A program made the translations under genes and the position numbers. A DNA stretch of 64,000 nt from Spirochaetota bacterium (GTDB lineage Bacteria > Spirochaetota > UBA6919 > CBDBPB01), in NCBI GenBank assembly GCA_965208615.1, contig CBDBPB010000001.1, positions 320,001 through 384,000 on the forward strand. Direction: 5' to 3'. Of this stretch, positions 7,481-28,647 are shown piece by piece. The notes under the pieces are model-generated. The model ran no database searches. It was not told where the DNA came from and was given only the letters and a program-made list of their open reading frames with translations. Position 1 is the stretch's first letter. Each line of letters begins with the position of its first letter.

Positions 7481-10371
7481 CTATTCCCCCTTATAAACTC
7501 GTATCTAAGTACCTTTGGCACCTTATCCATATTGGGTAAAGCCTTAAGAGGTTTAAACTCAGGCCATGGCTTTTTCTCATTAGCCTTACTAATACGCACC
7601 CTTAAATCAAACCAAGCCGCCTGACCACTAATCGGATCACTGTTGGATATTATAGTCCCATCATCTAAAGTAAGCTCCTCTTTGATAAGGTGATTCAATA
7701 AAAAACCATAACTAGCCTCTTTTGCCTTAGGATCAAGATTCCATGCACCAGGTATTTTAGCAATTGCATTCCACGTCCAAACAGTATCGGGCTGAACAGC
7801 CTCTGACAGCTTAACCTGTACCCTAATCTTACTAAGAGGAGATTCAACCCAAACCCAGTCCATATCCTTAATTCCAAGCTCAATAGCCTTAGCACTGTTC
7901 ATATATAAATAATTCTGACCAATAATCTGCCTAAGCCAAGCATTCTGACTATCCCATGAATGATACATAGGCATAGGCCTTTGGGTTATAGCATGAATGT
8001 TATATTTATCCTTGTCAATAAGCTCATGCTCAATAGGCTCATACCAAAATGGTAGTGGATCAAAATACTTAATAATCCTCTCTCTATGCCTATCACTAAC
8101 AGGCTGACGACCACTCCTATGCCCTTTAGCCGATAACCTAAACCTTTGTAGTGCCTCAGAATAAAGATTCATAACAATAGGCTCATTCATCCGTATAAGC
8201 TTAGCTTTTTGTGCCCAGTTTAAATATCCCTGATTAATATTACGATTGTATTTAATGTTGTCCTCAAGCTCAATCTGAAAGAATGACTTATTATTAAAAT
8301 ATGCCTCCCACTGATTTGGATTAGGCTCACCAATCATATGACTATTACCGTCTTTACCCCTCCATCCAGCTAAAAACCCTATACCAGCACCCTTAGCAGG
8401 CTCCCAATTGGCAATGAACTCCTTATAGGTTTTAAACAAAGGCTTTTTATCCGAATCACAAAAGCCCTCTAAGCCAAGAGAATTAGCAAGATCAATAAGA
8501 GTTTGTTGAAAAGGCCTACATTCACCCTTAGGCTCAAGGATAGGGCGTCTTATAGCATCAGCAGGACACTCATAATCACTAATAGGCCTATCCAACATGG
8601 ATATAACATCCAGCCTCTCAAGATAAGTTGTGTCAGGTAAAACTAAATCAGCAAAAGCAACTTGCTCACTATAAAAAGCATCACTCACAACCAAAAACGG
8701 TATCTTATATGTACCATCCTCATTCTTAGCCTTTAACATCTCAATAGTACCCATAGTATTCATAGACGAGTTCCACGCCATGTTAGCCATAAACAAAATT
8801 AACGTATCAATGGTATAAGGATCACCCCTATAGGCGTTGGATATAACATTCTGAAGCATCCCATGGGCTGTTAGTGGAAAGTCCCAGCTAAAAGCCTTAT
8901 CAAGCCTAAGAGGTTCACCATTATCATCAACCATTAAGTGTTCAGGCATAGATGGAAAGCCCAATACAGGTGATGGTAATGGTGTGTTAGGCTTAATCTG
9001 ATCAGCCGAGTTAATAGGCTTAGGACAAGGAGGAGCAGGCTTTGGGAAAGGCGGCTTAAACCTAAACCCACCAGGACGATCTATAATACCCAAAAGCATC
9101 ATAAATATAGATAGTGCCCTAATAGTCTGAAAACCATTGGAATGTGCAGCTAATCCCCTCATGCCATGAACAGATACAGGATTACCAGTGGTGGTCTCAT
9201 GTTCATTATCCCAAGCATCAGTCCACGGTATTGGCAATGTTATAGTCTCATTTTTTGCTATAATCCCTATCTCAAGAGCGATTCTCTCTATAGTATCAGC
9301 TGGTACACCACAAATAGCCTCTGCCTTCTCTGGAGTATACTCCTCCATGACCCTCTCACTCAGTAATTGCATACCAGTCTTTACTGTTTTACCGTCAGAA
9401 GTCTTAAAAGTACCCATAAGAGCTGGATTAATACCCTCAGTATATGGCTCCTCAACCTCATCAGTGTTTAAGTCCCACACTGAATGTAGACTATCATCCC
9501 TACCACCCCACTCAGGATGTATATATGATAGACCCTCACCTTCATCGCCCTCATCAGTCTGGATTAAGTATGAGGCATTAGTATGGGTCAATAAAAAGTC
9601 ATTGTCATATAAGCCATTCTTTAAAAGTACGTGGATCATAGCCATAATAAACATCCCATCAGTACCAGGCTTAATAGGTACCCACTCATCAGCAATTGCC
9701 CCATATCCAGATCGAACAGGGTTTATAACAACTAACTTACCACCACGCTCCCTTATCTTGGATAGGCCAAGCTTAAGAGGATTAGAGTCATGATCCTCAG
9801 CCACGCCAAATAATAACATATATTTAGTACGTTCATAATCAGCACCACCAAACTCCCAGCTAGTACCCCCTATAGAGTATATCATCCCAGTTGCCATATT
9901 AACAGAACAAAACCCACCATGTGCCGCAAAGTTAGGGGTACCAAATTGCTTTGCCCAGTAAGACGTTAAAGCCTGCATCTGATCCCTACCCGTAAAGAAT
10001 GCTAACTTCTTTGGATCAGTCTCTCTAATGTTTTTAAGACGCTTTGTAAGAATATCCATAGCCTCATCCCAGGATATCTCATTAAACTCACTCTCCCCTC
10101 TTTCTGCATTCTCTTTTCTTAAAAGAGGCTTACTTAGCCTAGCAGGGCTAAACTGCTTCATAATCCCTGATGAACCCTTTGCACATATCACTCCCTGATT
10201 AGTAGGATGATCAGGATTACCCTGTATATATACGATTTTATTATCCCTTAAATTAACCTTTATCCCGCACCTACAAGCACACATATAACAAGTTGTATAC
10301 TTAATATCCTCGTTGGACAAAAGAGTATGGCCATCCTTCTCCCGCCTTATGTTATCCATAAATCTCTCCAT
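7477..10371 (-). CDS. soeA: Cytoplasmic sulfite dehydrogenase molybdopterin subunit (start may be ATG at 10359, which has a GGAGA SD)
   Basis: TTCYMCACRCGI, FFTGRDQMQ, AAHGGFCSVN, MRGLAAHSNGFQT; no Tat signal. Confidence 0.9.
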   Translation of the reverse strand: MERFMDNIRREKDGHTLLSNEDIKYTTCYMCACRCGIKVNLRDNKIVYIQGNPDHPTNQGVICAKGSSGIMKQFSPARLSKPLLRKENAERGESEFNEISWDEAMDILTKRLKNIRETDPKKLAFFTGRDQMQALTSYWAKQFGTPNFAAHGGFCSVNMATGMIYSIGGTSWEFGGADYERTKYMLLFGVAEDHDSNPLKLGLSKIRERGGKLVVINPVRSGYGAIADEWVPIKPGTDGMFIMAMIHVLLKNGLYDNDFLLTHTNASYLIQTDEGDEGEGLSYIHPEWGGRDDSLHSVWDLNTDEVEEPYTEGINPALMGTFKTSDGKTVKTGMQLLSERVMEEYTPEKAEAICGVPADTIERIALEIGIIAKNETITLPIPWTDAWDNEHETTTGNPVSVHGMRGLAAHSNGFQTIRALSIFMMLLGIIDRPGGFRFKPPFPKPAPPCPKPINSADQIKPNTPLPSPVLGFPSMPEHLMVDDNGEPLRLDKAFSWDFPLTAHGMLQNVISNAYRGDPYTIDTLILFMANMAWNSSMNTMGTIEMLKAKNEDGTYKIPFLVVSDAFYSEQVAFADLVLPDTTYLERLDVISMLDRPISDYECPADAIRRPILEPKGECRPFQQTLIDLANSLGLEGFCDSDKKPLFKTYKEFIANWEPAKGAGIGFLAGWRGKDGNSHMIGEPNPNQWEAYFNNKSFFQIELEDNIKYNRNINQGYLNWAQKAKLIRMNEPIVMNLYSEALQRFRLSAKGHRSGRQPVSDRHRERIIKYFDPLPFWYEPIEHELIDKDKYNIHAITQRPMPMYHSWDSQNAWLRQIIGQNYLYMNSAKAIELGIKDMDWVWVESPLSKIRVQVKLSEAVQPDTVWTWNAIAKIPGAWNLDPKAKEASYGFLLNHLIKEELTLDDGTIISNSDPISGQAAWFDLRVRISKANEKKPWPEFKPLKALPNMDKVPKVLRYEFIRGNR

Positions 10372-19888: not shown

Positions 19889-20016
19889 AAAAAACTTAAT
19901 AAAAAGTTAGAGTATTTATAAAATATGCCTATAATCTAGTGAAAATGAATATTTATTCAATTTTTTTTGAGTTGTTGTTAAGAACACATCTTAGACTATA
20001 TTTATGAGGTATTTAT

Positions 20017-20730
20017 ATGTCAATCAAGCTATTTATTATAATGTTTTCGCTTACTCTTTGTTTTGAGGCATTTGCTATACCCGTTAGTACTAAAGGTATA
20101 TTCAATAAGATAAGGGAGAACTATTATAAGAGTTTTCCAAAAGATTTTACTGCAAGCGTTGTTGGACCAGAGATAAATAAAAGTCTTTCCAAAATACCTA
20201 AGAATGCATATTGTGAAAATAAAAGTCCAAAGGTTAGCTATCTTTATCTTAAGCATAAAGAAGAAAATATTATTGTAGAAAACGTTGAAAACCCTTATGT
20301 AACCAGATTCCAACTATATCTAAATATGTATAAAGGCACTAAAATATTTTTAAACTCGTCAATTTCTTTTTTACAGTTGAAAAAGGTGTTCTATTGGAGT
20401 TATAGACCTTCTCTTAGTAAAAAGTACTACGTAATAAAAATGAGAAGGCATAGGATTAGGAAATCCGACTATATGCTACTTTATGTAGATAAAAAAGATT
20501 TTTCTATTAAAAAGGCTGTTAAATATAGTAATGAGCGTGCAATAGGTACTCTTCTAATAACATATAAGAAAGTAAAAAGTTATAATATTCCATCGAGTCT
20601 AAAGTTCAACATTTTAAGGAAAGGTAAAATGGAAAAGTTTAACTTATTGATAAAGAGCTACAAGCTAAACACAGGATTGACTAAAGAAAAGATCATACAA
20701 CTCCAGAACGACTGTCCATCGCTAAACTAA
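20017..20730 (+). CDS. Exported hypothetical protein, possibly LolA-like fold
   Basis: Signal peptide; beta-rich C-terminus ending YKLNTGL; fold is inference. Confidence 0.55.
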   Translation: MSIKLFIIMFSLTLCFEAFAIPVSTKGIFNKIRENYYKSFPKDFTASVVGPEINKSLSKIPKNAYCENKSPKVSYLYLKHKEENIIVENVENPYVTRFQLYLNMYKGTKIFLNSSISFLQLKKVFYWSYRPSLSKKYYVIKMRRHRIRKSDYMLLYVDKKDFSIKKAVKYSNERAIGTLLITYKKVKSYNIPSSLKFNILRKGKMEKFNLLIKSYKLNTGLTKEKIIQLQNDCPSLN

Positions 20731-20771
20731 ATGGGATACTAGCTAGTAATTAGAATAGACCTATCAAATTA

Positions 20772-21512
20772 TTAGACTAGTTCCCAGCAACCGAATCCCA
20801 TAGAGTTTTTTGAACCTATTCCGCTATCATAGGCTATATCGATTAATTTATTATTAGCAGTTATGCTGTATAGTCCTAAATATCCTTCTATAATAAGGTT
20901 TTTATATTTAGTAATTATTTTTTGTGGATTATTTAGTGGTTTAAAGGTAAAAATAGTAGGTTCTATATTATTAACTGTAGGTATATTAAGTTGTGGATTA
21001 GCGTTAGCTTTTTTTAAGAGGTTATCATGTATAAGCTTTTCAAACACTGGATCACGGGGATTATAAAAGTGTATTTTTTTATTATTAGTTGAGTATTGTG
21101 TAACGGGTGATAGCATTTTTATAGTTATTTTATGATTAAAGTTTTGTTTGTTGTGGATTTTAATACCGTTTAGTTTTAATTTATTTTGTCCTAGAGTTAT
21201 GTTATGGGATTTCATTTGATTTTCAATCATACTAATGGCAATCTTTTCAACGGCGGTAGACAGGGTGAACTGAACATTTTTACCAAAGTTTAATGTTTTA
21301 TTTGATTTATTAAATGAGGTTTTTGTATTGCTTTTGAGCAGTGAAAAGCAAAATAGTTTAAAATGTCTTCCGTTTATTTTATATCCTTGTTTATGTAGGA
21401 AGGATGCAAAATCTTTTTCTAGATATTTGTATATCATAGCTTGTATAAAGTGATTATAGTTAACGGGGAGGATAATATCCAATTGTGATGAGAAGCTTAT
21501 AGTAATACGCAT
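20772..21512 (-). CDS. cas6: CRISPR endoribonuclease Cas6
   Basis: YNHFIQAMIY, FLHKQGY, FKLFCFS, G-rich loop GIGSKNSMGFG. Confidence 0.96.
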   Translation of the reverse strand: MRITISFSSQLDIILPVNYNHFIQAMIYKYLEKDFASFLHKQGYKINGRHFKLFCFSLLKSNTKTSFNKSNKTLNFGKNVQFTLSTAVEKIAISMIENQMKSHNITLGQNKLKLNGIKIHNKQNFNHKITIKMLSPVTQYSTNNKKIHFYNPRDPVFEKLIHDNLLKKANANPQLNIPTVNNIEPTIFTFKPLNNPQKIITKYKNLIIEGYLGLYSITANNKLIDIAYDSGIGSKNSMGFGCWELV

Positions 21513-21615
21513 TTTTTATTAATGTGTTATATGATATTAAATTACATTTAATTATTTATAGTTAAATGGTTCGGTAGAACTATCTTTTAGATATAGTTTT
21601 TATTATTAAAAAGTA

Positions 21616-21659
21616 AAATTGAAAATGATAAATTTTATCAATTTGGAGTGAAGCTTTTA
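21616..21659. repeat. Direct repeat copy 1 (40/44 identical to 28604-28647) containing a Fur-box-like dyad
   Basis: AAATTGAAAATGATAAATTTTATCAATTTGGAGTGAAGCTTTTA. Confidence 0.85.
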
Positions 21660-21687
21660 TGATTAATGAGTTGGAATAAGATAGATG

Positions 21688-21879
21688 TCATGGATATCCA
21701 AAACCTTTTTTATAAAAAAAAGAGTGTGATATTTATAAACATTTGTTTGTATAATAATATAATAAGCATTATGTTGGTATAGAGTTTTATTAATTATTTA
21801 AAATACACTATCGGAGGTTTGGGAATAAATTATAGAAATGCATGTTATAACTTATTGTTATATTATGAGTTATAAATGG
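21688..21879 (+). promoter_or_regulatory. CRISPR leader region
   Basis: AT-rich non-coding DNA before the first repeat with TATAAT at 21750-21755; repeat ends ATTGAAAC on +. Confidence 0.65.
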
Positions 21880-22302
21880 GTTTAACCGTACCTATAAGGA
21901 ATTGAAACATATAGCGATTTGTTAGAAAAGCTAGAGCTAGTCACTGTTTAACCGTACCTATAAGGAATTGAAACACTAGTAATCCTATACGTCCTACTGT
22001 TAATATTTCTCGTTTAACCGTACCTATAAGGAATTGAAACTAATTTTCGTCTGTTCTTATTTTAGAGAGGGGAGCCGTTTAACCGTACCTATAAGGAATT
22101 GAAACCATATACAAAATTTTTGTCCGCATTCGCATTCGCATGTTTAACCGTACCTATAAGGAATTGAAACTTTGAAAAACTTCCTGAAAGTATAACTAAA
22201 CTAACAAGTTTAACCGTACCTATAAGGAATTGAAACCTCTAAAACCGCTTACAGGACAGGCATATTTAAACCAGTTTAACCGTACCTATAAGGAATTGAA
22301 AC
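21880..22302 (+). CRISPR. CRISPR array: 7 identical 29-bp repeats, 6 spacers of 36-37 bp
   Basis: GTTTAACCGTACCTATAAGGAATTGAAAC at 21880, 21946, 22012, 22077, 22142, 22208, 22274. Confidence 0.99.
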
Positions 22303-22416
22303 TGAAATAGGACATACAAATAACACTATATTTTATTATAAAAACAATATTCTGAACAAATAAAATAAATATCATGACTATACAAAAACTAACTTTTTTA
22401 TAAAAAGTCATAAAAC

Positions 22417-22450
22417 AGTGTGATATTTATAAACTTTTGTTTGTATTATA
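22417..22450 (+). repeat. Second copy of the leader promoter-like block (32/34 identical to 21723-21756)
   Basis: AGTGTGATATTTATAAACTTTTGTTTGTATTATA. Confidence 0.85.
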
Positions 22451-22518
22451 AAATAAGGTTATTAAAAACATTCTCTTTTGTTTTTGTTGTTTCTTTTGTA
22501 ACTCCTTTTTTTTGTTTG

Positions 22519-22550
22519 TACGACCTTAAGAGTTTCTTAGGGTCGTATTT
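22519..22550 (+). terminator. Stable hairpin between the array and cas8b (weak U-tract)
   Basis: TACGACCTTAAGA-GTT-TCTTAGGGTCGTA then TTT; one U-G pair on +. Confidence 0.55.
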
Positions 22551-22573
22551 AAAAAGTCTTAATTTTGTTTTGC

Positions 22574-22602
22574 ATTTTATAGTATCTATAACAAGTTGAA
22601 AT
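22574..22602 (+). CRISPR. Solitary degenerate CRISPR repeat directly before the cas8b RBS
   Basis: ATTTTATAGTATCTATAACAAGTTGAAAT, 20/29 ungapped identity to the array repeat. Confidence 0.6.
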
Positions 22603-22614
22603 AGGAGAGAAATA

Positions 22615-24405
22615 ATGATTAAGGCAATACAAGAGTTAGGTCAGCTTTTATTAAAAGAAAAGAATACAACAAGTATACTTACTAGCCTTTTAACTACCGC
22701 AGATTTAAATAAAATACAGTTAGTACTCGAAATTCATATTAAAAATGGAGAGTATACCAAGGTTTATTATGTTGCCTATCAAAAAGAAGACGGAGATAAA
22801 TATCTATATAAAAAGGGACCTGGTAATGGTGGAGATTATACCCTCTCTTCCAGGCTGAGCAAAGATACAAATACAAAAACCTTTCTTGCTAACAAAACTT
22901 TAAACCGTTTTAAGAACTGCTTTAATAATTTGCTAGCAAAGAAAAGTCTATCAGAAGATGATAAAAAACTAATTAATACCTTAAATGATAATTTTACAAG
23001 CTATTACAAAGAAATCGAAAAAGAGCTATATAACTTAGCTAATAAACTTAACAAAAAAGATGGCTATCTTGTAACTTTCATAATTGATGATAAACCTTTA
23101 TCTGAGTTTAAGGTTTTTAAAGATTCTATCTTAGAAGATTTTTATTCAAAGAGTTATACTAAACAAAATAAGAAGTCTATTGGAACTAATCAAGTATGTA
23201 GTATATGCCTTAATAAAAAGGCTGAAGTATATGGTCTATCAAAGAACTTCTCATTTTACACATTAGATAAATGGTCTTTTGTTAATTCAGGTTTTGATCT
23301 ACAAAAAGCCTGGCGTAATTATCCAGTTTGCCCAGAGTGTTTATTAGAGGTAGAGCTTGGCAAGCGAAAACTTATGAGTGAGTTTAGTTTTTCATTTTGT
23401 GGTTTTCGTTATTTACTAATCCCAAAGTTAGTTACTTCAAAGGATGAAGAGCTAAAAAAGGTATATGATCTTCTAAAGGATTTTAAGGGTCCCTCTTTCG
23501 AAAAAGAAGTAAAACAAGGTATTATTGATGGTGAAAACGAGGTACTGGAGCTTTTTAAAGACAAAAGTAATAACTTAAATCTCTTTTTTCTTTTCTATAA
23601 GATAGATAATTCAGCTTTTAGAATTCTTCTCACTTTAGAAGGGTTTAACCCTTCGCTAATAAGAAAACTATATTGTGCACAGGATAAAGCTCATAATGAA
23701 CCTATGTTTAAAAGAATTAAGAAACTTGAAGTGCTTGTTAAAGCTGGTTATGAGCCTCGCTTTACATTTAAAGTAGTAAGGAATTTCTTAGAAGACAAAT
23801 CATTTTTAGAAATTATTGGCAAGACATTTACACTAAGGCATATTAGCTATCAATATCTTATTGCTATGTTTATTAACAAAATACGCTATCAATTTGTTAA
23901 TAACTATTCTTCACTTATTCAAACATCAGATGCTTTTCTAATTTTATATTTTTTGCACCACTTAAACTTAATAAAAGTTAAAGGAGGAAATATGGATAAG
24001 TTTCATGATAATGACACTGAAGAAGAGTTCACAAAGCACTTTGAAGACCATAAAAGCTTTTTTAGTAATGAGCAATGTACTGCATTCTTAGTGGGTGTTT
24101 TAGTACAAAAGTTATTGAATATTCAATATCAAGATAAAAAAGCCAGTCCATTTTACAAACATCTTAATGGTCTACAAGTTAACGAGAAGCTCTTAAGGAG
24201 GGTGTTTGTTAAGGCTCAAAACAAATTAATAGAATATGAAAAAAACTATTATGTTAAATTAGAAGTTTTAATTTCAAAATACTTTGAGGTTTCAGACCTT
24301 GCAAAAACCACTAGTGATGAAATATCATTCTATTTTATAACAGGGATGAACCTAAGCCGTCTCTTCCTCAAAAAAGAAGATAGCAATTCAGATTCATCTA
24401 GTTAA
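22615..24405 (+). CDS. cas8b: Type I-B large subunit Cas8b/Csh1
   Basis: MIKAIQELG, CSIC...FYTLDK...WRNYPVCPEC, C-terminal AFLVGVLVQKLLNIQ. Confidence 0.92.
   Translation: MIKAIQELGQLLLKEKNTTSILTSLLTTADLNKIQLVLEIHIKNGEYTKVYYVAYQKEDGDKYLYKKGPGNGGDYTLSSRLSKDTNTKTFLANKTLNRFKNCFNNLLAKKSLSEDDKKLINTLNDNFTSYYKEIEKELYNLANKLNKKDGYLVTFIIDDKPLSEFKVFKDSILEDFYSKSYTKQNKKSIGTNQVCSICLNKKAEVYGLSKNFSFYTLDKWSFVNSGFDLQKAWRNYPVCPECLLEVELGKRKLMSEFSFSFCGFRYLLIPKLVTSKDEELKKVYDLLKDFKGPSFEKEVKQGIIDGENEVLELFKDKSNNLNLFFLFYKIDNSAFRILLTLEGFNPSLIRKLYCAQDKAHNEPMFKRIKKLEVLVKAGYEPRFTFKVVRNFLEDKSFLEIIGKTFTLRHISYQYLIAMFINKIRYQFVNNYSSLIQTSDAFLILYFLHHLNLIKVKGGNMDKFHDNDTEEEFTKHFEDHKSFFSNEQCTAFLVGVLVQKLLNIQYQDKKASPFYKHLNGLQVNEKLLRRVFVKAQNKLIEYEKNYYVKLEVLISKYFEVSDLAKTTSDEISFYFITGMNLSRLFLKKEDSNSDSSS
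23992..24405 (+). CDS. cas11: Cas11 small subunit from an internal in-frame start within cas8b
   Basis: AAGGAGG at 23981-23987 followed by in-frame ATG at 23992; 137 aa helical domain. Confidence 0.75.
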   Translation: MDKFHDNDTEEEFTKHFEDHKSFFSNEQCTAFLVGVLVQKLLNIQYQDKKASPFYKHLNGLQVNEKLLRRVFVKAQNKLIEYEKNYYVKLEVLISKYFEVSDLAKTTSDEISFYFITGMNLSRLFLKKEDSNSDSSS

Positions 24406-24431
24406 GCTAATTGTTTTAAGGAGGAAAAATT

Positions 24432-25316
24432 ATGTTAGATATTAAAAATAGAAGTGAATTATTATTTTTATATGATATTAGTGATGCTAATCCTAATGGC
24501 GATCCTGCTGATGAGAACCGTCCAAGAGTTGATGAAGAAACAGGTTATAATATTGTAACTGATGTACGTCTTAAAAGGACTATAAGAGACTATCTATTTG
24601 AAAACAAGGGATATAATGGTAGTGATGACAAGGATATTTTTGTAAGAGAGATTATTTATGATCAAAAAAATCAACATATACAAGACGGAAAAAGCAGAAC
24701 CAAGAACTTTGATAACGATAAAGAAAAGATAATAAACAGCTGTATTGATATTAGAATGTTTGGTGGGGTACTGCCTATTGAAAAAGATTCTATAACGTTT
24801 ACAGGACCTGTTCAATTTCAGATGGGCAGATCACTCCATCGTGTTTCCATCAATCACATTAAAGGCACAGGAGCTTTTGCCTCTAAGATGGGGGCTAAGC
24901 AAAAAACGTTTAGAGAGGAATATATTTTACCTTATTCACTTATAGCATTTCACGGTATTATAAATGAGAATGCCGCTAAGCATACAAACCTAACTACTGA
25001 AGATGTTAAATTACTTTTAGAGGGTATGTGGGAGGGAACTAAAAACCTTATTACCCGATCCAAGTTTGGACAGATGCCAAGACTATTACTAAAAGTAGAT
25101 TATAAAGATAACTTTTATATTGGAGAATTGCACAAGTTAGTTAGCTTAGATAGCGAAAAAGAGGATGAACACATAAGATCTACTGATGATTTTATACTTG
25201 ACGTGTCAAAGCTAAATATAGCTTTAGAAAAGTATAAAGACAAAATTGTAAAAGTTACACTTATAAATATATCCGATTCTCTTAAGTTATCTGAAAAGAT
25301 ATATGACGCTAATTAA
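24432..25316 (+). CDS. cas7: Type I-B Cas7/Csh2
   Basis: NPNGDP...NRPR, VTDVRLKRTIRDY, DIRMFGG, TGPVQF. Confidence 0.96.
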   Translation: MLDIKNRSELLFLYDISDANPNGDPADENRPRVDEETGYNIVTDVRLKRTIRDYLFENKGYNGSDDKDIFVREIIYDQKNQHIQDGKSRTKNFDNDKEKIINSCIDIRMFGGVLPIEKDSITFTGPVQFQMGRSLHRVSINHIKGTGAFASKMGAKQKTFREEYILPYSLIAFHGIINENAAKHTNLTTEDVKLLLEGMWEGTKNLITRSKFGQMPRLLLKVDYKDNFYIGELHKLVSLDSEKEDEHIRSTDDFILDVSKLNIALEKYKDKIVKVTLINISDSLKLSEKIYDAN

Positions 25317-25327
25317 TCACATAAATT

Positions 25328-26077
25328 GTGAGGAAAAAAGTGAATAAATGTTTAATCTTTGATGTTTGGGGAGACTATGCTCACTTCAGAAAGTTTTATA
25401 CGACTTCTTCACCTATAACATTACCATTTCCTCCTAAGGCAACAATTGTTGGAATGATATCTGCTATTATAGGTTTAGATAAGGATATTTATCTTAAATC
25501 TTTTTCAAAAGAAGATTATCATATAGCTTTAGGAATTATTAATCCTATAAAAACATCATTTATTATGGAAAATTGGCTTGATGTTAAAAGATGGAGCTAT
25601 GAATTACGCACTAAAGAAATATTAGGTAAAAAACAACCTAAGCAACGAATATTAGCTCACACTCAAATAAAAATAGAGTGGGTTAAAGACCCTAAATATC
25701 GAATATATTTTTATCACAAAGATAATGATATACAAAACAACTTAAAACAGCATTTAAAGAACCATACATCATTCTATACCGTTACTCTAGGGGCCAGTGA
25801 GAACTTAGCTAATTTTAACTATATAGATGAACAAGACTTCCAACTGTCAGATACTGAACTAACCAGCATTAGGTCTGTTATTAGAAAAGAGCATCTTAAA
25901 GAAATTGACTGGTCTAATCCTCAAGAAATTAAGATACTAAACTATCCAATAGATATGACTGAAAATAGAATAACAGAATGCTATGACGAGTATCTTTACG
26001 AAAATAATGGAAACTCCATTAAGGCAAAACTTTATAAGGCAATGAGGATTAATGATTATGTCATCTGCCCTATGTAA
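25328..26077 (+). CDS. cas5: Type I-B Cas5
   Basis: FDVWGDYAHFRK...SSPITLPFPPKATIVGMISAIIG. Confidence 0.95.
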   Translation: MRKKVNKCLIFDVWGDYAHFRKFYTTSSPITLPFPPKATIVGMISAIIGLDKDIYLKSFSKEDYHIALGIINPIKTSFIMENWLDVKRWSYELRTKEILGKKQPKQRILAHTQIKIEWVKDPKYRIYFYHKDNDIQNNLKQHLKNHTSFYTVTLGASENLANFNYIDEQDFQLSDTELTSIRSVIRKEHLKEIDWSNPQEIKILNYPIDMTENRITECYDEYLYENNGNSIKAKLYKAMRINDYVICPM

Positions 26078-28495
26078 TCCAAAAGAGTTAAGCCTTTACT
26101 CTCATCCTAATAAGAAGTTATTTGATCATCTATTAAGAGGGTTTAATCACATTAAAGATCAAATAGATCGCTCTAAACTTTCATTTGATAAATATAATGC
26201 TGATGATATTAAATTAGCCTCTAAAATAGCCTATATATTCCATGACTTTGCTAAGTCTACACCTTTTTTTCAAGATTATATGAAAGAGATTATGGAAAAA
26301 GGTGAGTCTAAAAATCGTTCTAAAAATAAGAGTCACTCTCATTTATCAGCTATTGTAGGCTATTCTGTTGGAATAAAGGTCTTAAAATGTGAAGTGCTTG
26401 CTGTTCTAGTCTATGCCTCAATTAAATTACATCACTCAAATATTAAAGATTTTGATAAAGTCTTAATCATTTCAGACGAGGATAAAAACCTTTTAGAGAA
26501 ACAATTTCTATCCTTAAAAAAGTACTCAAAAGAAATTAATTGTACGTTCCAAACTCTTTTGGAGAAGGCTAACATAGACTATACATTTGATATGGAATAT
26601 ACTAAGGAGTCTTTTGGAGATTTGTGGAACCTTAAAAAAACTCTTCGTAAAAATAAAAAGGCTCTTTGTAATAAAGAAAAGCACACAAACGATATTAAAG
26701 AAATTGAGCCTTATTTAACCCTCTTATTTATATTTTCTTCTATAATTTATGGGGATAAGTCAGAAGCTATTTTAAAGCAAGATATTGATAAGACTAAGTT
26801 AGGAAGGTCTCCTTGGCGTTTCGACATAGTGAATAATTATATAACAAATCTTTCAAATAATTCCCCTATAAATAAGATTCGCAAGGATATCTATCAAGAT
26901 GCTTTAAATAATATTGAAACACTAGATTTAAAAAATAATAAGATTCTTACTTTAACTGTTCCAACAGGTGGGGGTAAAACATTAACATCGTTAGCTATTG
27001 CTACAAAAATCAATGAAATATTAAAAAAGAATGGAAAAATTATCTATTCTCTTCCCTTTACTTCTCTCATAGAGCAAAACCAAAATGTTTTAAAGATATT
27101 TTGAAAAACAATCAAATTAGCCAAGATGATAAAAATATACTAACCCATCACTATCTTAGTGATAGAGAGTTTAATGACTTTTCAGAAGATAATTATAATT
27201 TTGATATTGATAAATCTTCTCATCTTATCGAAACCTGGAATAGTCATTTAGTAATTACTACTTTTATTCAATTTTGTAATAGTGTTTTTAATAATCGTAA
27301 TAAAAATCTCAAGCGATTTCTCCAATTGAGAGATAGTATTATAATTTTAGATGAAATTCAATGTTTTCCTACAAAATATCATAAGATATTCTCTAAAGTA
27401 ATTCAATGTCTTAGTCAATGTTTTAATATCCATTTTATTTTAATGACTGCCACTCAGCCTTATATTTTTGAACAGGGCATATCAAAAGAAATATTACCAT
27501 GTTCCAAAAGGTATTTCACTCAGTTTAATCGTACTAAATTAATCTACTCAGATAAGAAAGTTAAAATATGTGATTTAAATAATAACATGTTTAAACAGTG
27601 GGAACTGCAAAACAATAGTTTTCTTATTGTGATGAATACTATTAGCTCATCCATTAAGCTGTTTAATGAGCTTAAAGCTAAACTAGAAAGACATATCCCC
27701 TTTTATCTTTCAACTAATATTATCCCCAAAGAACGACAGCACCGAATAAAAGAAATTAAAAGACTTTTGAAAAGTAAAAAAAATATTTTTGTTGTAAGTA
27801 CACAATTAATTGAGGCAGGAGTTGATCTTGATTTCCCTTTGGTTATAAGAGATTTTGCACCTCTTGATAGCATTAATCAAATTGCTGGAAGGTGTAATAG
27901 AAATGGCCTTAATGAAGGTAAACCTGTTTACGTTATTGAGCTACAAGATGATAACAATAAAAGCTTTGCAAATTATGTATATGATAACATATTGTTACAC
28001 ATTACCAAAAATATACTTAAACCAGAAATTAAAGAAAATGAGCTTTATAGTTTTGCTAAAACATATTTTGATGATGTTAACAAAAAACGTAGTCAAGACT
28101 TTATAGACCTGTGGCAATCTTTTTGTAGATTAAGCTTTGAAAAAGCATATAGTAGTGTAAATGGGAATAGCGGAGGCCTTAATCTCATTGAAAACCTGCC
28201 AAATTATGTTAATGTCTTTGTAGAAATTGATGAAGAGGCTAAAATAGTTTGGGAGAAATATGATAATAACATATTATCAAATAAAAAGCTTAATAACATT
28301 GAAAAAAGAACAAAATATAAACAGATTGTAAACGAACTTAATAAGTATATCGTTAATACACCTTTGAAAATTGCTGATAAGTTTGTAGAAGTTTATGATA
28401 AGTCGCTATACAAAATTGATTATGAAAGTATAGAGCATTACTATAATATGGAAACAGGTGTAAAACGTGGAGAAGAAGATATTTATGTCATCTAA
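26052..28495 (+). CDS. cas3: Cas3 HD nuclease-helicase, split by a -1 frameshift at about 27089-27095
   Basis: Part 1: FHDFAK, HHS, PTGGGKT, LPFTSLIEQN. Part 2: DEIQ, MTATQP, STQLIEAGVD, QIAGRCNR. The break lies inside the helicase. Confidence 0.92.
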
Positions 28496-28603: not shown

Positions 28604-28647
28604 AAATTGAAAATGATAAATTTTGTCAATTTGCAGTCAAGATTTTA
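28604..28647. repeat. Direct repeat copy 2 of 21616-21659
   Basis: AAATTGAAAATGATAAATTTTGTCAATTTGCAGTCAAGATTTTA; both copies continue to GAATAAGATAG. Confidence 0.85.

What the first reader, a model, noticed from the sequence alone, without database searches (positions are those of the whole stretch)
22574..22617. Solitary degenerate CRISPR repeat fused to the cas8b ribosome-binding site
Seen: 22574-22602 aligns without gaps to the 29-nt array repeat at 20/29, keeps the CTATAA core and a handle-like GTTGAAAT end, and is followed immediately by AGGAGAG and the cas8b ATG. It lies about 270 bp from the array. Upstream are a 13-bp hairpin (22519-22547) and a U-rich tract containing an anti-SD (ACTCCTT, 22501-22507). 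Known: degenerate repeats near type I-B cas6/cas8 give rise to crRNA-like regulators (CreA/CreR class). Inference: Cas6 could cut its own operon's leader 8 nt from the repeat end. That would either free the RBS from the anti-SD or load the cas8b 5' end into Cascade, giving a post-transcriptional feedback loop.
Basis: partly seen in the sequence, partly recalled or inferred. Interest (0 to 1): 0.72.

Follow-up and report, generated by a model that had tools for sequence, protein, structure and literature searches.

The report
Decayed CRISPR repeat before cas8b
The 29-base stretch just before the cas8b gene is a real but worn-down copy of the neighbouring CRISPR repeat, left from a duplicated promoter-leader-repeat unit that now appears to drive the cas genes; whether it still does anything is unproven.

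Summary
22574-22602 matches the 29-nt repeat at 20/29 and abuts the cas8b SD (AGGAGAG 22603-22609) and ATG (22615).

It is not chance:
- Only 10 of 20,000 shuffles of the 312-nt intergenic region reach 20/29.
- It lies at the same offset (694 nt) from a 45-nt promoter-like block (22412-22456) as repeat 1 (21880) lies from the block's only other genomic copy (21718-21762, 41/45 identical).

So 22393-22602 is a diverged paralogue of the array's promoter-leader-repeat-1 unit. The 117 nt between block and repeat are unrelated in the two copies (34/117).

The CreA/CreR-type reading is not supported. There is no convincing second repeat and no promoter target for the would-be spacer. Cas6 cleavage or feedback could not be tested: no RNA runs were listed and no close orthologous locus could be fetched.

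The decay pattern suggests a relic. A/T positions are kept 17/19 and G/C positions 3/10, including the GG before the cut site that related repeats keep.

Best reading: a vestigial repeat carried in the cas8b 5' UTR (about 0.5). A cis-acting Cas6/Cascade site is the main rival (about 0.28).

The parts
20772..21512 (-). cas6 (246 aa), divergent from the array
   Evidence: TIGR01877 cas6, 123 bits, above the cut-off
21705..21718 (+). CTTTTTTATAAAAA, start of unit A (array copy)
   Evidence: 14/14 identical to 22393-22406 (D5)
21718..21762 (+). Block A: 45-nt promoter-like block of the CRISPR leader (GTGATA-18-TATAAT at 21726-21755)
   Evidence: 41/45 identical to block B (D2). Best promoter-like sites of the leader. 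Only two copies in the genome; next best is 31/45
21763..21879 (+). Leader proper (117 nt) of array 1
   Evidence: Its last 93 nt are 93.5% identical to the leader of a second array at G000:C1:280820-280912. 28 nt are 92.9% identical to the leader of the system-2 array on C2. Unrelated to 22457-22573 (34/117)
21880..22302 (+). CRISPR array 1: 7 identical 29-nt repeats and 6 spacers of 36-37 nt
   Evidence: Rfam CRISPR-DR2 matches 7 of 7 repeats
22393..22406 (+). CTTTTTTATAAAAA, start of unit B (cas8b copy)
   Evidence: D5
22412..22456 (+). Block B: paralogue of block A, inferred cas8b operon promoter (GTGATA-18-TATTAT at 22420-22449)
   Evidence: The promoter role is inferred; it was not shown
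22457..22517 (+). U-rich part of the inferred 5' UTR; contains ACTCCTT (22501-22507)
   Evidence: 53% T across 22457-22573; ACTCCTT is unpaired in the MFE fold
22518..22548 (+). 14-bp hairpin with a 3-nt loop; function unknown
   Evidence: dG -19.2, z -6.3. Unique in the genome. Not terminator-like (0 found)
22574..22602 (+). Degenerate solitary repeat (psiR), 20/29 to the array repeat. The predicted Cas6-equivalent cut would fall between 22594 and 22595
   Evidence: Same 694-nt offset as block A/B
22603..22617 (+). cas8b Shine-Dalgarno AGGAGAG (22603-22609), 5-nt spacer, ATG (22615-22617)
   Evidence: conserved N-terminus
22615..24405 (+). cas8b (Csh1/TM1802 type, 596 aa)
   Evidence: TIGR02556 193 bits, TIGR02591 114 bits
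24432..26077 (+). cas7 (24432-25316) and cas5 (25328-26077)
   Evidence: TIGR02590 287 bits; TIGR02592 130 bits
26046..28495 (+). cas3 in two overlapping frames (26046-27104 and 27017-28495); the break lies inside the helicase core
   Evidence: The first ORF carries Cas3'' HD plus helicase profile positions 2-47. The second carries positions 56-356

Best explanation
The element is a true but decaying CRISPR repeat. The region 22393-22602 upstream of cas8b is a diverged paralogue of the array's own promoter-leader-first-repeat unit (21705-21908).

The 45-nt promoter-like block has been kept almost intact. It most likely drives the cas8b-cas7-cas5-cas3 operon, so crRNA and Cascade would be transcribed from twin promoters (inferred). 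The adaptation leader has been lost from this copy. In its place is a U-rich tract with a strong hairpin of exactly the same length.

The former first repeat survives at its original distance, now directly abutting the cas8b ribosome-binding site. It is transcribed as the last 29 nt of a roughly 158-nt 5' UTR before the SD (inferred), and possibly also on read-through from the array. It is mainly a vestige whose G/C positions have been eroded by A/T-biased mutation. It is not a dedicated regulator; any residual binding by Cas6 or Cas5 would be weak.

Shown: the homology, the register and the decay pattern. Inferred: the promoter function, the UTR extent and the lack of function.
For: - The match is 20/29, with 10 of 20,000 shuffles of the intergenic region doing as well.
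- Blocks A and B are 41/45 identical and occur nowhere else in the genome (next best 31/45).
- Repeat 1 and psiR both start 162 nt after the block start (offset 694 for both pairs).
- Both blocks carry the best sigma-70-like sites of their regions.
- Decay pattern: psiR keeps 17/19 A/T positions but only 3/10 G/C positions (Fisher p 0.002). The block keeps 35/38 A/T and 6/7 G/C. The two therefore have the same A/T-site divergence, and G/C loss is confined to psiR. This is as expected for relaxed selection in a 31% GC genome.
- The GG of AAGG just before the cut site is present in the repeats of L013, L017, L022 and this genome, and is lost in psiR.
- Rfam CRISPR-DR2 lists 7 of 7 array repeats but not psiR at E<=1.
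- The same genome holds another decayed leader-plus-two-repeat remnant upstream of its second array, so such relics do arise here.
- The local system looks run-down: it has no cas1/2/4 and a frame-broken cas3.
- In distant Cas8b relatives, 1 of 27 loci has TTGAAA near the RBS. None of the 3 loci with arrays has a clearly significant repeat-like match upstream of cas8b; the six tests (two strands each) gave uncorrected shuffle P of 0.04-1.0.
Against: - psiR is far better kept (69%) than the 117 nt next to it (29%, random level). A purely neutral relic of the same age should have decayed alike.
- The exact conservation of the 117-nt spacing, with no sequence similarity in between, is unexplained. 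It could mean constraint on geometry.
- The handle core TTGAAA and the CTATAA core are intact, and positions 1/29 and 12/20 changed in a pair-preserving way (G-C to A-T, C-G to T-A).
- Haloarchaeal I-B Cas6 processes psi-repeats that share as little as 11-16 of 30 nt with each other (PMC8501985, passages read). Degeneracy alone therefore does not exclude processing.
- The position flush against the SD is what a cis regulator would need.
- No expression or comparative data could be obtained either way.
Confidence: 0.5

Rival explanations
1. Cis-acting repeat mimic. psiR in the cas8b 5' UTR, or on array read-through transcripts, is bound and cut by Cas6 between 22594 and 22595. This leaves an mRNA that starts with an 8-nt handle (GUUGAAAU) directly followed by the SD.

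Two outcomes are possible. Cleavage could free the SD/AUG from the upstream U-rich strand and detach the cas message from the pre-crRNA. Alternatively, Cas5/Cas7 could load on the handle and cover the SD/AUG. That would give translational feedback sensing free Cascade subunits against crRNA load.
For: - Real repeat homology in the right strand and register.
- psiR is kept much better than its flank (20/29 vs 34/117).
- TTGAAA of the handle is intact and the element is flush with the SD.
- No terminator-like site lies between the array and cas8b (0 found), so psiR can sit on the same transcript as the array.
- The MFE fold encloses psiR in a stem that pairs 22556-22573 with the SD/AUG region.
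- Precedents read here: degenerate psi-repeats are Cas6-processed in I-B, and a one-repeat creA exists (PMC8501985). Solitary repeat RNAs can bind Cas6 and Cas7 (PMC10651486, abstract in the listings only).
Against: - The GG before the cut site and the terminal C are lost, and G/C positions are kept only 3/10.
- Only 7 of the first 12 nt are kept; those are the Cas6-binding part in haloarchaeal I-B (PMC9458426). 6/8 of the handle are kept.
- The enclosing stem is no better than shuffles (z +0.48).
- Rfam does not list psiR.
- The feature was not seen in 27 distant relatives, apart from L013's TTGAAA.
- There are no RNA data.
Confidence: 0.28
2. Trans-acting CreA/CreR-type guide. psiR supplies the 5' handle of a crRNA-like RNA whose spacer-like part guides Cascade to a partially matching, PAM-flanked site in a cas or toxin promoter.
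For: - The location between cas6 and cas8b is typical for such elements in I-B (PMC10120712; preprint 10.1101/2023.03.10.532045).
- A weak second repeat (15/29) lies at the array's own period, 65 nt downstream.
Against: - The spacer-like part would be the cas8b SD and first codons, whose protein sequence is conserved in distant relatives.
- It has no partial match in 20001-23200. Genome-wide seeds of 9-10 nt occur only at other AGGAG[A/T]GAAA ribosome-binding sites.
- The upstream alternative has no first repeat; the best is 13/29 at -60.
- No toxin-like small gene was seen in my reading of 22303-22614. The only small ORF there, 9 codons at 22374-22403, has no SD in front of it.
Confidence: 0.05
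3. DNA-level geometry. The block and the repeat-like element are two halves of one protein-binding architecture, kept 117 bp apart in both copies. The protein could be a regulator, or an adaptation or architectural factor, contacting both sites. psiR would then be kept as a DNA site, not as RNA.
For: The spacing is exactly equal (117 nt) although the intervening sequences are unrelated. The two conserved islands are unique to these two sites.
Against: - Arrays 2 and 3 of the same genome lack the block yet share the leader-proximal sequence. The block is therefore not needed for the array's leader function.
- G/C positions of psiR are poorly kept.
- No known factor was identified.
Confidence: 0.1
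4. Chance resemblance in A/T-rich intergenic DNA.
For: - 16 other non-array sites in the genome reach 20-21/29, one of them inside argG in this window.
- A 27/30 match to the psiR region itself occurs antisense inside an unrelated ORF on C6.
Against: - Only 10 of 20,000 shuffles of the intergenic region reach 20/29.
- The element is in the exact register of repeat 1 behind the duplicated block. That is about 1 in 130 possible positions, independent of the match itself.
- It is by far the best local alignment in 22303-22760: score 26, next best 16.
Confidence: 0.04

Closest known systems
[quoted passage not shown] 2023, PMC10120712; passages read)
   Same: A single repeat-derived sequence sits outside the array, in a long intergenic region next to cas6/cas8 of a type I-B locus. 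That paper reports repeat-like sequences enriched near cas6 in I-B (27%), and notes that many are partially degraded.
   Different: - Their SRUs are nearly identical to the array repeat, and they required a 16-bp BLASTN match. Here the longest exact run is 6 nt, so that pipeline would not find it.
- They required conservation in close relatives, which could not be tested here.
- In the passages I read, nothing is said about an element fused to a cas gene's SD, or about a cas promoter paralogous to the leader promoter.
CreA / CreR degenerate mini-CRISPRs of type I systems (PMC8501985; PMC9458426; preprint 10.1101/2023.03.10.532045)
   Same: Degenerate repeats lie in a type I-B cas intergenic region. 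The handle part is better kept than much of the rest. A one-repeat form (H. hispanica creA) exists.
   Different: CreA/CreR act in trans, through a spacer-like segment that partly matches a PAM-flanked promoter site. Here the segment after psiR is the cas8b SD and start codon, and no such target exists in the locus. The only candidate second repeat is weak and lies inside the cas8b coding sequence (15/29).
Degenerate terminal repeats and decayed array remnants
   Same: It is a repeat copy that has accumulated substitutions, mostly G/C to A/T, on the leader-distal side of an array. The same genome has another decayed remnant upstream of array 2.
   Different: - It is not contiguous with the array; it lies 272 nt away.
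- It has its own copy of the leader's promoter block at the canonical distance.
- It is better kept than its immediate flank.
RNA anti-CRISPRs (Racrs): solitary repeat mimics that bind Cas6/Cas7 (PMC10651486; abstract in search listings only)
   Same: A solitary repeat-like RNA that could engage Cas6 and backbone subunits without guiding interference.
   Different: Racrs are phage-encoded inhibitors. This element is chromosomal, inside the cas operon's own 5' UTR, and much more degenerate.

Membership tests
CRISPR repeat derivative (solitary / ectopic repeat) | Similarity to the cognate array repeat beyond chance, on the transcribed strand | tested here: met
   20/29 ungapped. 10 of 20,000 shuffles of the 312-nt region reach it. 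Best local alignment by far, 26 vs 16.
CRISPR repeat derivative (solitary / ectopic repeat) | Homology by position: same register as a bona fide repeat within a duplicated unit | tested here: met
   Offset is 694 nt for block A/B (41/45) and for repeat 1/psiR. The block is unique to these two sites.
SRU as defined by Shmakov et al. 2023 | BLASTN match of at least 16 bp to the array repeat | tested here: not met
   The longest exact runs are 6 nt, CTATAA and TTGAAA. The threshold is quoted from PMC10120712.
SRU as defined by Shmakov et al. 2023 | [quoted passage not shown] | not testable with these tools
   The closest Cas8b proteins (67% and 41% identity, P0002 and P0003) carry no reachable DNA. 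All loci fetched are 27-36% identical.
CreA / CreR mini-CRISPR | Second degenerate repeat one spacer length away, or a terminator ending the spacer-like part | tested here: inconclusive
   15/29 at +65 (22639), per-position chance 0.0047, but inside the conserved cas8b coding sequence. Upstream the best is 13/29. No terminator-like site.
CreA / CreR mini-CRISPR | Spacer-like segment partly complementary (seed of about 10 nt or more) to a PAM-flanked site in a cas or toxin promoter | tested here: not met
   No site in 20001-23200. Genome-wide seeds of 9-10 nt occur only at generic AGGAG[A/T]GAAA ribosome-binding sites. The PAM of this system is unknown.
CreA / CreR mini-CRISPR | Cas6-dependent maturation and Cascade-dependent repression | not testable with these tools
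   No RNA run is listed; this needs bench work.
Canonical CRISPR repeat (Rfam CRISPR-DR2, RF01315) | Match to the family covariance model | tested here: not met
   7 of 7 array repeats score 34.1 bits (E 5e-4, below the 37-bit gathering score). psiR is not listed at E<=1.
Intrinsic terminator (for the hairpin 22518-22548) | G+C-rich stem followed by a T run | tested here: not met
   0 terminator-like sites in 21400-22700. The stem is followed by ATTTAAAAAG.
Type I-B (Csh1/Hmari-type) effector module | cas6, cas8b, cas7, cas5 and cas3 family matches above cut-off | tested here: met
   TIGR01877, TIGR02556/02591, TIGR02590 and TIGR02592 are above cut-off. cas3 HD and helicase are present but split over two frames.

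The most novel reading that the evidence does not exclude
A CRISPR-Cas system carries a repeat mimic in cis, fused to the ribosome-binding site of the first Cascade gene and inherited from a duplicated leader-repeat unit. Free Cas6 would cut it, and/or free Cas5/Cas7 would assemble on the resulting 8-nt handle and cover the SD/AUG. Cascade synthesis would then be tuned post-transcriptionally to the balance between Cas proteins and crRNA.

The twin promoters would couple crRNA and cas transcription. This would be a cis, translational counterpart of the trans, transcriptional CreR/tracr-L circuits.
Probability: 0.25. Interest if true: 0.8.

Novelty: new variant of a known kind. Interest (0 to 1): 0.4.

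Why it matters
Ectopic, degenerate repeats are now known to regulate cas genes in trans (CreA, CreR, mini-arrays). This locus shows a different origin and position. A whole promoter-leader-repeat unit has been duplicated, its promoter kept, and its repeat left flush against the cas8b ribosome-binding site.

At the least, this documents how a cas operon can acquire the array's promoter, giving built-in co-expression of crRNA and Cascade, and how solitary repeats arise. If the repeat remnant is still recognised by Cas6 or Cas5/Cas7, it would be a cis-acting, post-transcriptional feedback on Cascade synthesis. I found no description of such a mechanism in the four literature searches run.

A practical point: elements this degenerate (longest exact run 6 nt) escape BLAST-based repeat screens. 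Register relative to a duplicated leader block is a usable alternative criterion.

Tried and rejected
**Orthologue search.**
- Cas8b as a single query found nothing in genome contigs, metagenome contigs or viral contigs (with P0002).
- The repeat as a DNA pattern found nothing in metagenome contigs or viral contigs.
- A four-protein alignment (A1) brought 30 distant loci at 27-36% identity.
- Whole-genome searches of 61 relatives and of 401 genomes of the phylum gave at best 34% identity.

**Distant loci.**
- Of the 30 loci, I printed the upstream 140 nt for the 27 whose match starts at query residue 1. L021, L029 and L034 were left out because their matches start at residue 47 or 62.
- 1 of 27 (L013) has TTGAAA near the start.
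- Only 3 of the 30 loci hold an array within the fetched flank. None of those 3 has a convincing repeat-like match in -300..+30; shuffle P is 0.04-1.0 over 6 tests.
- Six further loci from the phylum searches showed no real array near cas8b. One 3-copy A/T-rich 14-mer was seen in L046.

**Expression.** No RNA holder is listed for 21500-24500.

**Homology of the 117-nt segments.** Rejected. The global score is -23 against shuffles at -15.3 +/- 5.0, and the local score is 9 against 10.8 +/- 1.5. BLAST of 22457-22573 against the genome gave only short A/T-rich hits.

**Other readings tested and rejected.**
- Second repeat upstream of psiR: the best is 13/29 at -60, overlapping the hairpin; a gapped alignment was not better than other sites.
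- Target of the would-be spacer: none.
- Array spacers regulating the locus: none of the 15 spacers has a seed of 8 or more in 20500-22700 or upstream of the system-2 cas6.
- The degenerate mini-array upstream of array 2 as the real CreR: no target in any cas promoter.
- Hairpin as a repeated element or terminator: it is unique and not terminator-like.
- SD/anti-SD pairing with ACTCCTT: not in the MFE or centroid fold.

**Not available.** Supplementary files of the papers, which hold the lists of SRUs and mini-arrays in PMC10120712, were not opened.
Full report
**Setting.** The window carries a type I-B effector module:
- cas6 on the minus strand (20772-21512);
- a 7-repeat array on the plus strand (21880-22302, repeat GTTTAACCGTACCTATAAGGAATTGAAAC);
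- cas8b (22615-24405), cas7 and cas5;
- a cas3 split over two overlapping frames.

There is no cas1, cas2 or cas4 here. The genome (2.46 Mb, 31% GC, 9 contigs) has a second, complete I-B system of another subtype on contig C2. That system runs cas6-cas8b1-cas7-cas5-cas3-cas4-cas1-cas2 and has a 4-repeat array with a different repeat. A further 7-repeat array with the window's repeat (one base different) lies 61 kb upstream on C1. All three arrays share the leader-proximal sequence. The two Cas6 proteins are only 27% identical.

**The observation.** 22574-22602 matches the repeat at 20/29 without gaps. It keeps TTT, GTA, CTATAA and TTGAAA. AGGAGAG (22603-22609) follows at once, and the cas8b ATG is at 22615. 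The start codon is secure because the N-terminus is conserved in distant homologues. The hairpin at 22518-22548 is strong (14 pairs, dG -19.2, z -6.3) and unique in the genome. ACTCCTT is at 22501-22507.

**Is it more than chance?** A 20/29 match is not rare on the scale of the genome. 17 non-array sites reach 20-21/29 on the two strands, one of them in argG inside this window. Two independent facts nevertheless make chance very unlikely.
- Within the 312-nt array-cas8b spacer, only 10 of 20,000 shuffles reach 20/29. The element is also by far the best local alignment there, scoring 26 against 16.
- A 45-nt block in the CRISPR leader (21718-21762) recurs upstream of cas8b (22412-22456) at 41/45 identity, preceded in both places by CTTTTTTATAAAAA. 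This block occurs nowhere else in the genome; the next best is 31/45.

The block-to-block offset is 694 nt, and repeat 1 (21880) plus 694 is 22574, exactly the start of the element. So 22393-22602 is a paralogue of the array's promoter-leader-repeat-1 unit, and the element is homologous to repeat 1 by position as well as by sequence.

**Anatomy of the two units.** Both blocks contain the best sigma-70-like sites of their regions: GTGATA-18-TATAAT at 21726-21755 and GTGATA-18-TATTAT at 22420-22449. The scan as a whole is not enriched over shuffles (12 found, 8.3 +/- 2.4 expected). I therefore infer, without proof, that the block is the promoter of the array and, in its second copy, of the cas8b operon. 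That would place the element at the end of a 5' UTR of about 158 nt.

No terminator-like site lies between the array and cas8b. Array read-through could therefore also carry the element.

The 117 nt between block and repeat are unrelated in the two copies: 34/117 identical, and gapped alignments are no better than shuffles. In the array copy this segment is the adaptation leader shared with the other arrays. In the cas8b copy it is a 53% T tract plus the hairpin. I cannot explain why the length is exactly conserved when the sequence is not.

**What speaks for a vestige.**
- Nine positions differ from the repeat. A/T positions are kept 17/19 but G/C positions only 3/10 (Fisher p 0.002). The block keeps 35/38 A/T and 6/7 G/C. 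The two islands thus have the same A/T-site divergence, and the extra loss in the element is confined to G/C sites. That is the signature of relaxed selection under A/T-biased mutation in a 31% GC genome.
- The lost bases include the GG of AAGG just before the expected cut and the final C. The repeats of three distant relatives (L013, L017, L022) and of this genome all keep AAGG and ATTGAAAC.
- Rfam's CRISPR-DR2 model lists 7 of 7 array repeats but not this element at E<=1.
- The genome holds another decayed leader-like end followed by two degenerate repeats, upstream of array 2. No target was found for that remnant's spacer.
- The local system lacks adaptation genes and has a frame-broken cas3.

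**What speaks for function.**
- The element is much better kept than its flank; P is about 1e-5 if the flank identity were the background.
- The handle core TTGAAA is intact and the element is flush with the SD.
- Positions 1/29 and 12/20 changed in a pair-preserving way.
- In haloarchaeal I-B systems, Cas6 processes psi-repeats that share only 11-16 of 30 nt with each other, and a one-repeat creA exists (PMC8501985, passages). In those systems the first 12 nt serve Cas6 binding and the last 8 serve Cas5 binding (PMC9458426, passages). Here 7/12 and 6/8 are kept.
- The MFE fold pairs the SD/AUG with 22556-22573, with the element at the tip, so a cut would separate the strands.

**CreA/CreR membership.** Not supported.
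- The segment after the element is the cas8b SD and first codons.
- It has no partial match in the locus, and genome-wide it matches only other ribosome-binding sites.
- The candidate second repeat, at the array's own period (+65, 15/29, chance 0.0047 per position), lies in conserved coding sequence.
- None of the 15 array spacers targets the locus.

**Comparative and expression evidence.** None could be obtained.
- The lineage is isolated: only 2 genomes of the same order were among the 61 relatives searched.
- The best Cas8b in 401 genomes of the phylum is 34% identical.
- The 67% homologue has no reachable DNA.
- Collection scans found no close locus.
- Distant relatives do not show the feature: 1 of 27 has TTGAAA near the start, and none of the 3 loci with arrays has a clearly significant match (uncorrected shuffle P 0.04-1.0 over six tests). 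At 27-36% identity and with other repeat families, this says little.
- No RNA run is listed.

**Verdict.**
- Most likely (about 0.5) it is a vestige riding in the cas8b 5' UTR, while the duplicated promoter is the functional part.
- A cis-acting Cas6/Cascade site giving post-transcriptional feedback remains a live rival (about 0.28) and is the most novel reading.
- A trans CreR-type guide (0.05), a DNA-geometry element (0.1) and chance (0.04) are less likely.

In the four literature searches run and the passages read, I found solitary and degenerate repeats described. I found no repeat fused to a cas gene's SD and no cas promoter paralogous to the leader promoter. Supplements were not seen.

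Noticed in passing
window 21624-21644 and 28612-28632 (wider match 21616-21659 vs 28604-28647): A Fur-box-like 7-1-7 inverted repeat (TGATAAATTTT[A/G]TCA inside AATGATAAATTTTATCAATTT) occurs 13 times in the genome at 19/21 or better. Two same-orientation copies bracket the leader-array-cas8b-cas3 module and are 91% identical over 44 nt. The first lies about 110 nt upstream of cas6. It may be a metal-regulator operator controlling cas6, or a trace of how the module was inserted.
   Followed up: partly
window 26046-28495: cas3 is split into two overlapping frames (26046-27104 and 27017-28495). The break lies inside the helicase core: profile positions 2-47 in one frame and 56-356 in the other. 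This is a frameshift or a sequencing error in an A-rich stretch. The local system also lacks cas1, cas2 and cas4.
   Followed up: partly
G000:C1:about 280965-281075, minus strand (L042 about 8965-9075), outside the window: Upstream of the second array lies a decayed mini-array. It has a leader-like end, a degenerate repeat ending in ATTGAAAG, a 32-nt spacer-like segment, a 25-nt repeat copy with a 4-nt deletion, and then CTTTTTTTTTAAAAA before the present leader. No promoter target for its spacer was found.
   Followed up: partly
G000:C2:25668-34360 (L044 3668-12360), outside the window: A second, complete type I-B system of the Cst1/Cst2/Cas5t subtype with cas4-cas1-cas2 and a 4-repeat array (GTTTTAGTCGCCAATAGTGGGATTTAAAG). 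Its roughly 67-nt leader-proximal sequence resembles the leaders of the two arrays that use the window's repeat. This suggests that one adaptation module serves all three arrays.
   Followed up: partly
window 22518-22548: A unique 14-bp hairpin lies in the inferred cas8b 5' UTR. It is preceded by a U-rich tract and followed by an A-rich one, and is not terminator-like on either strand. Its function is unknown.
   Followed up: partly
window 22572-22601 vs G000:C6:39638-39667 (minus strand): A 27/30 match to the psiR region lies antisense inside a long ORF on C6 (BLAST E 0.007 for that search). It matches the CRISPR repeat itself at only about 17/29 by my hand count. It was taken as coincidence.
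   Followed up: partly
window 22106-22141 (array 1 spacer 4) and G000:C1:280687-280724 (array 2 spacer 2): The two spacers share a GAATGCGAATGC-type repeat in opposite orientation (24/38 positions). Both arrays may therefore hold spacers against related targets.
   Followed up: no
G000:C7:162970-164784, outside the window: Six tandem copies of the same gene start (AGGAGAGAAATATGATAACGGATGACC...) recur every 300-400 nt, suggesting a tandem family of small genes. This was seen while scanning for spacer-like matches.
   Followed up: no
L010, L018, L023, L025 (Bathyarchaeia loci), about 140 nt upstream of cas8b: The upstream regions of cas8b in four Bathyarchaeia loci are visibly alike (e.g. TTATTCAAAG...GATGCATTGATTGCTG...), hinting at a conserved regulatory region in that clade.
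   Followed up: no
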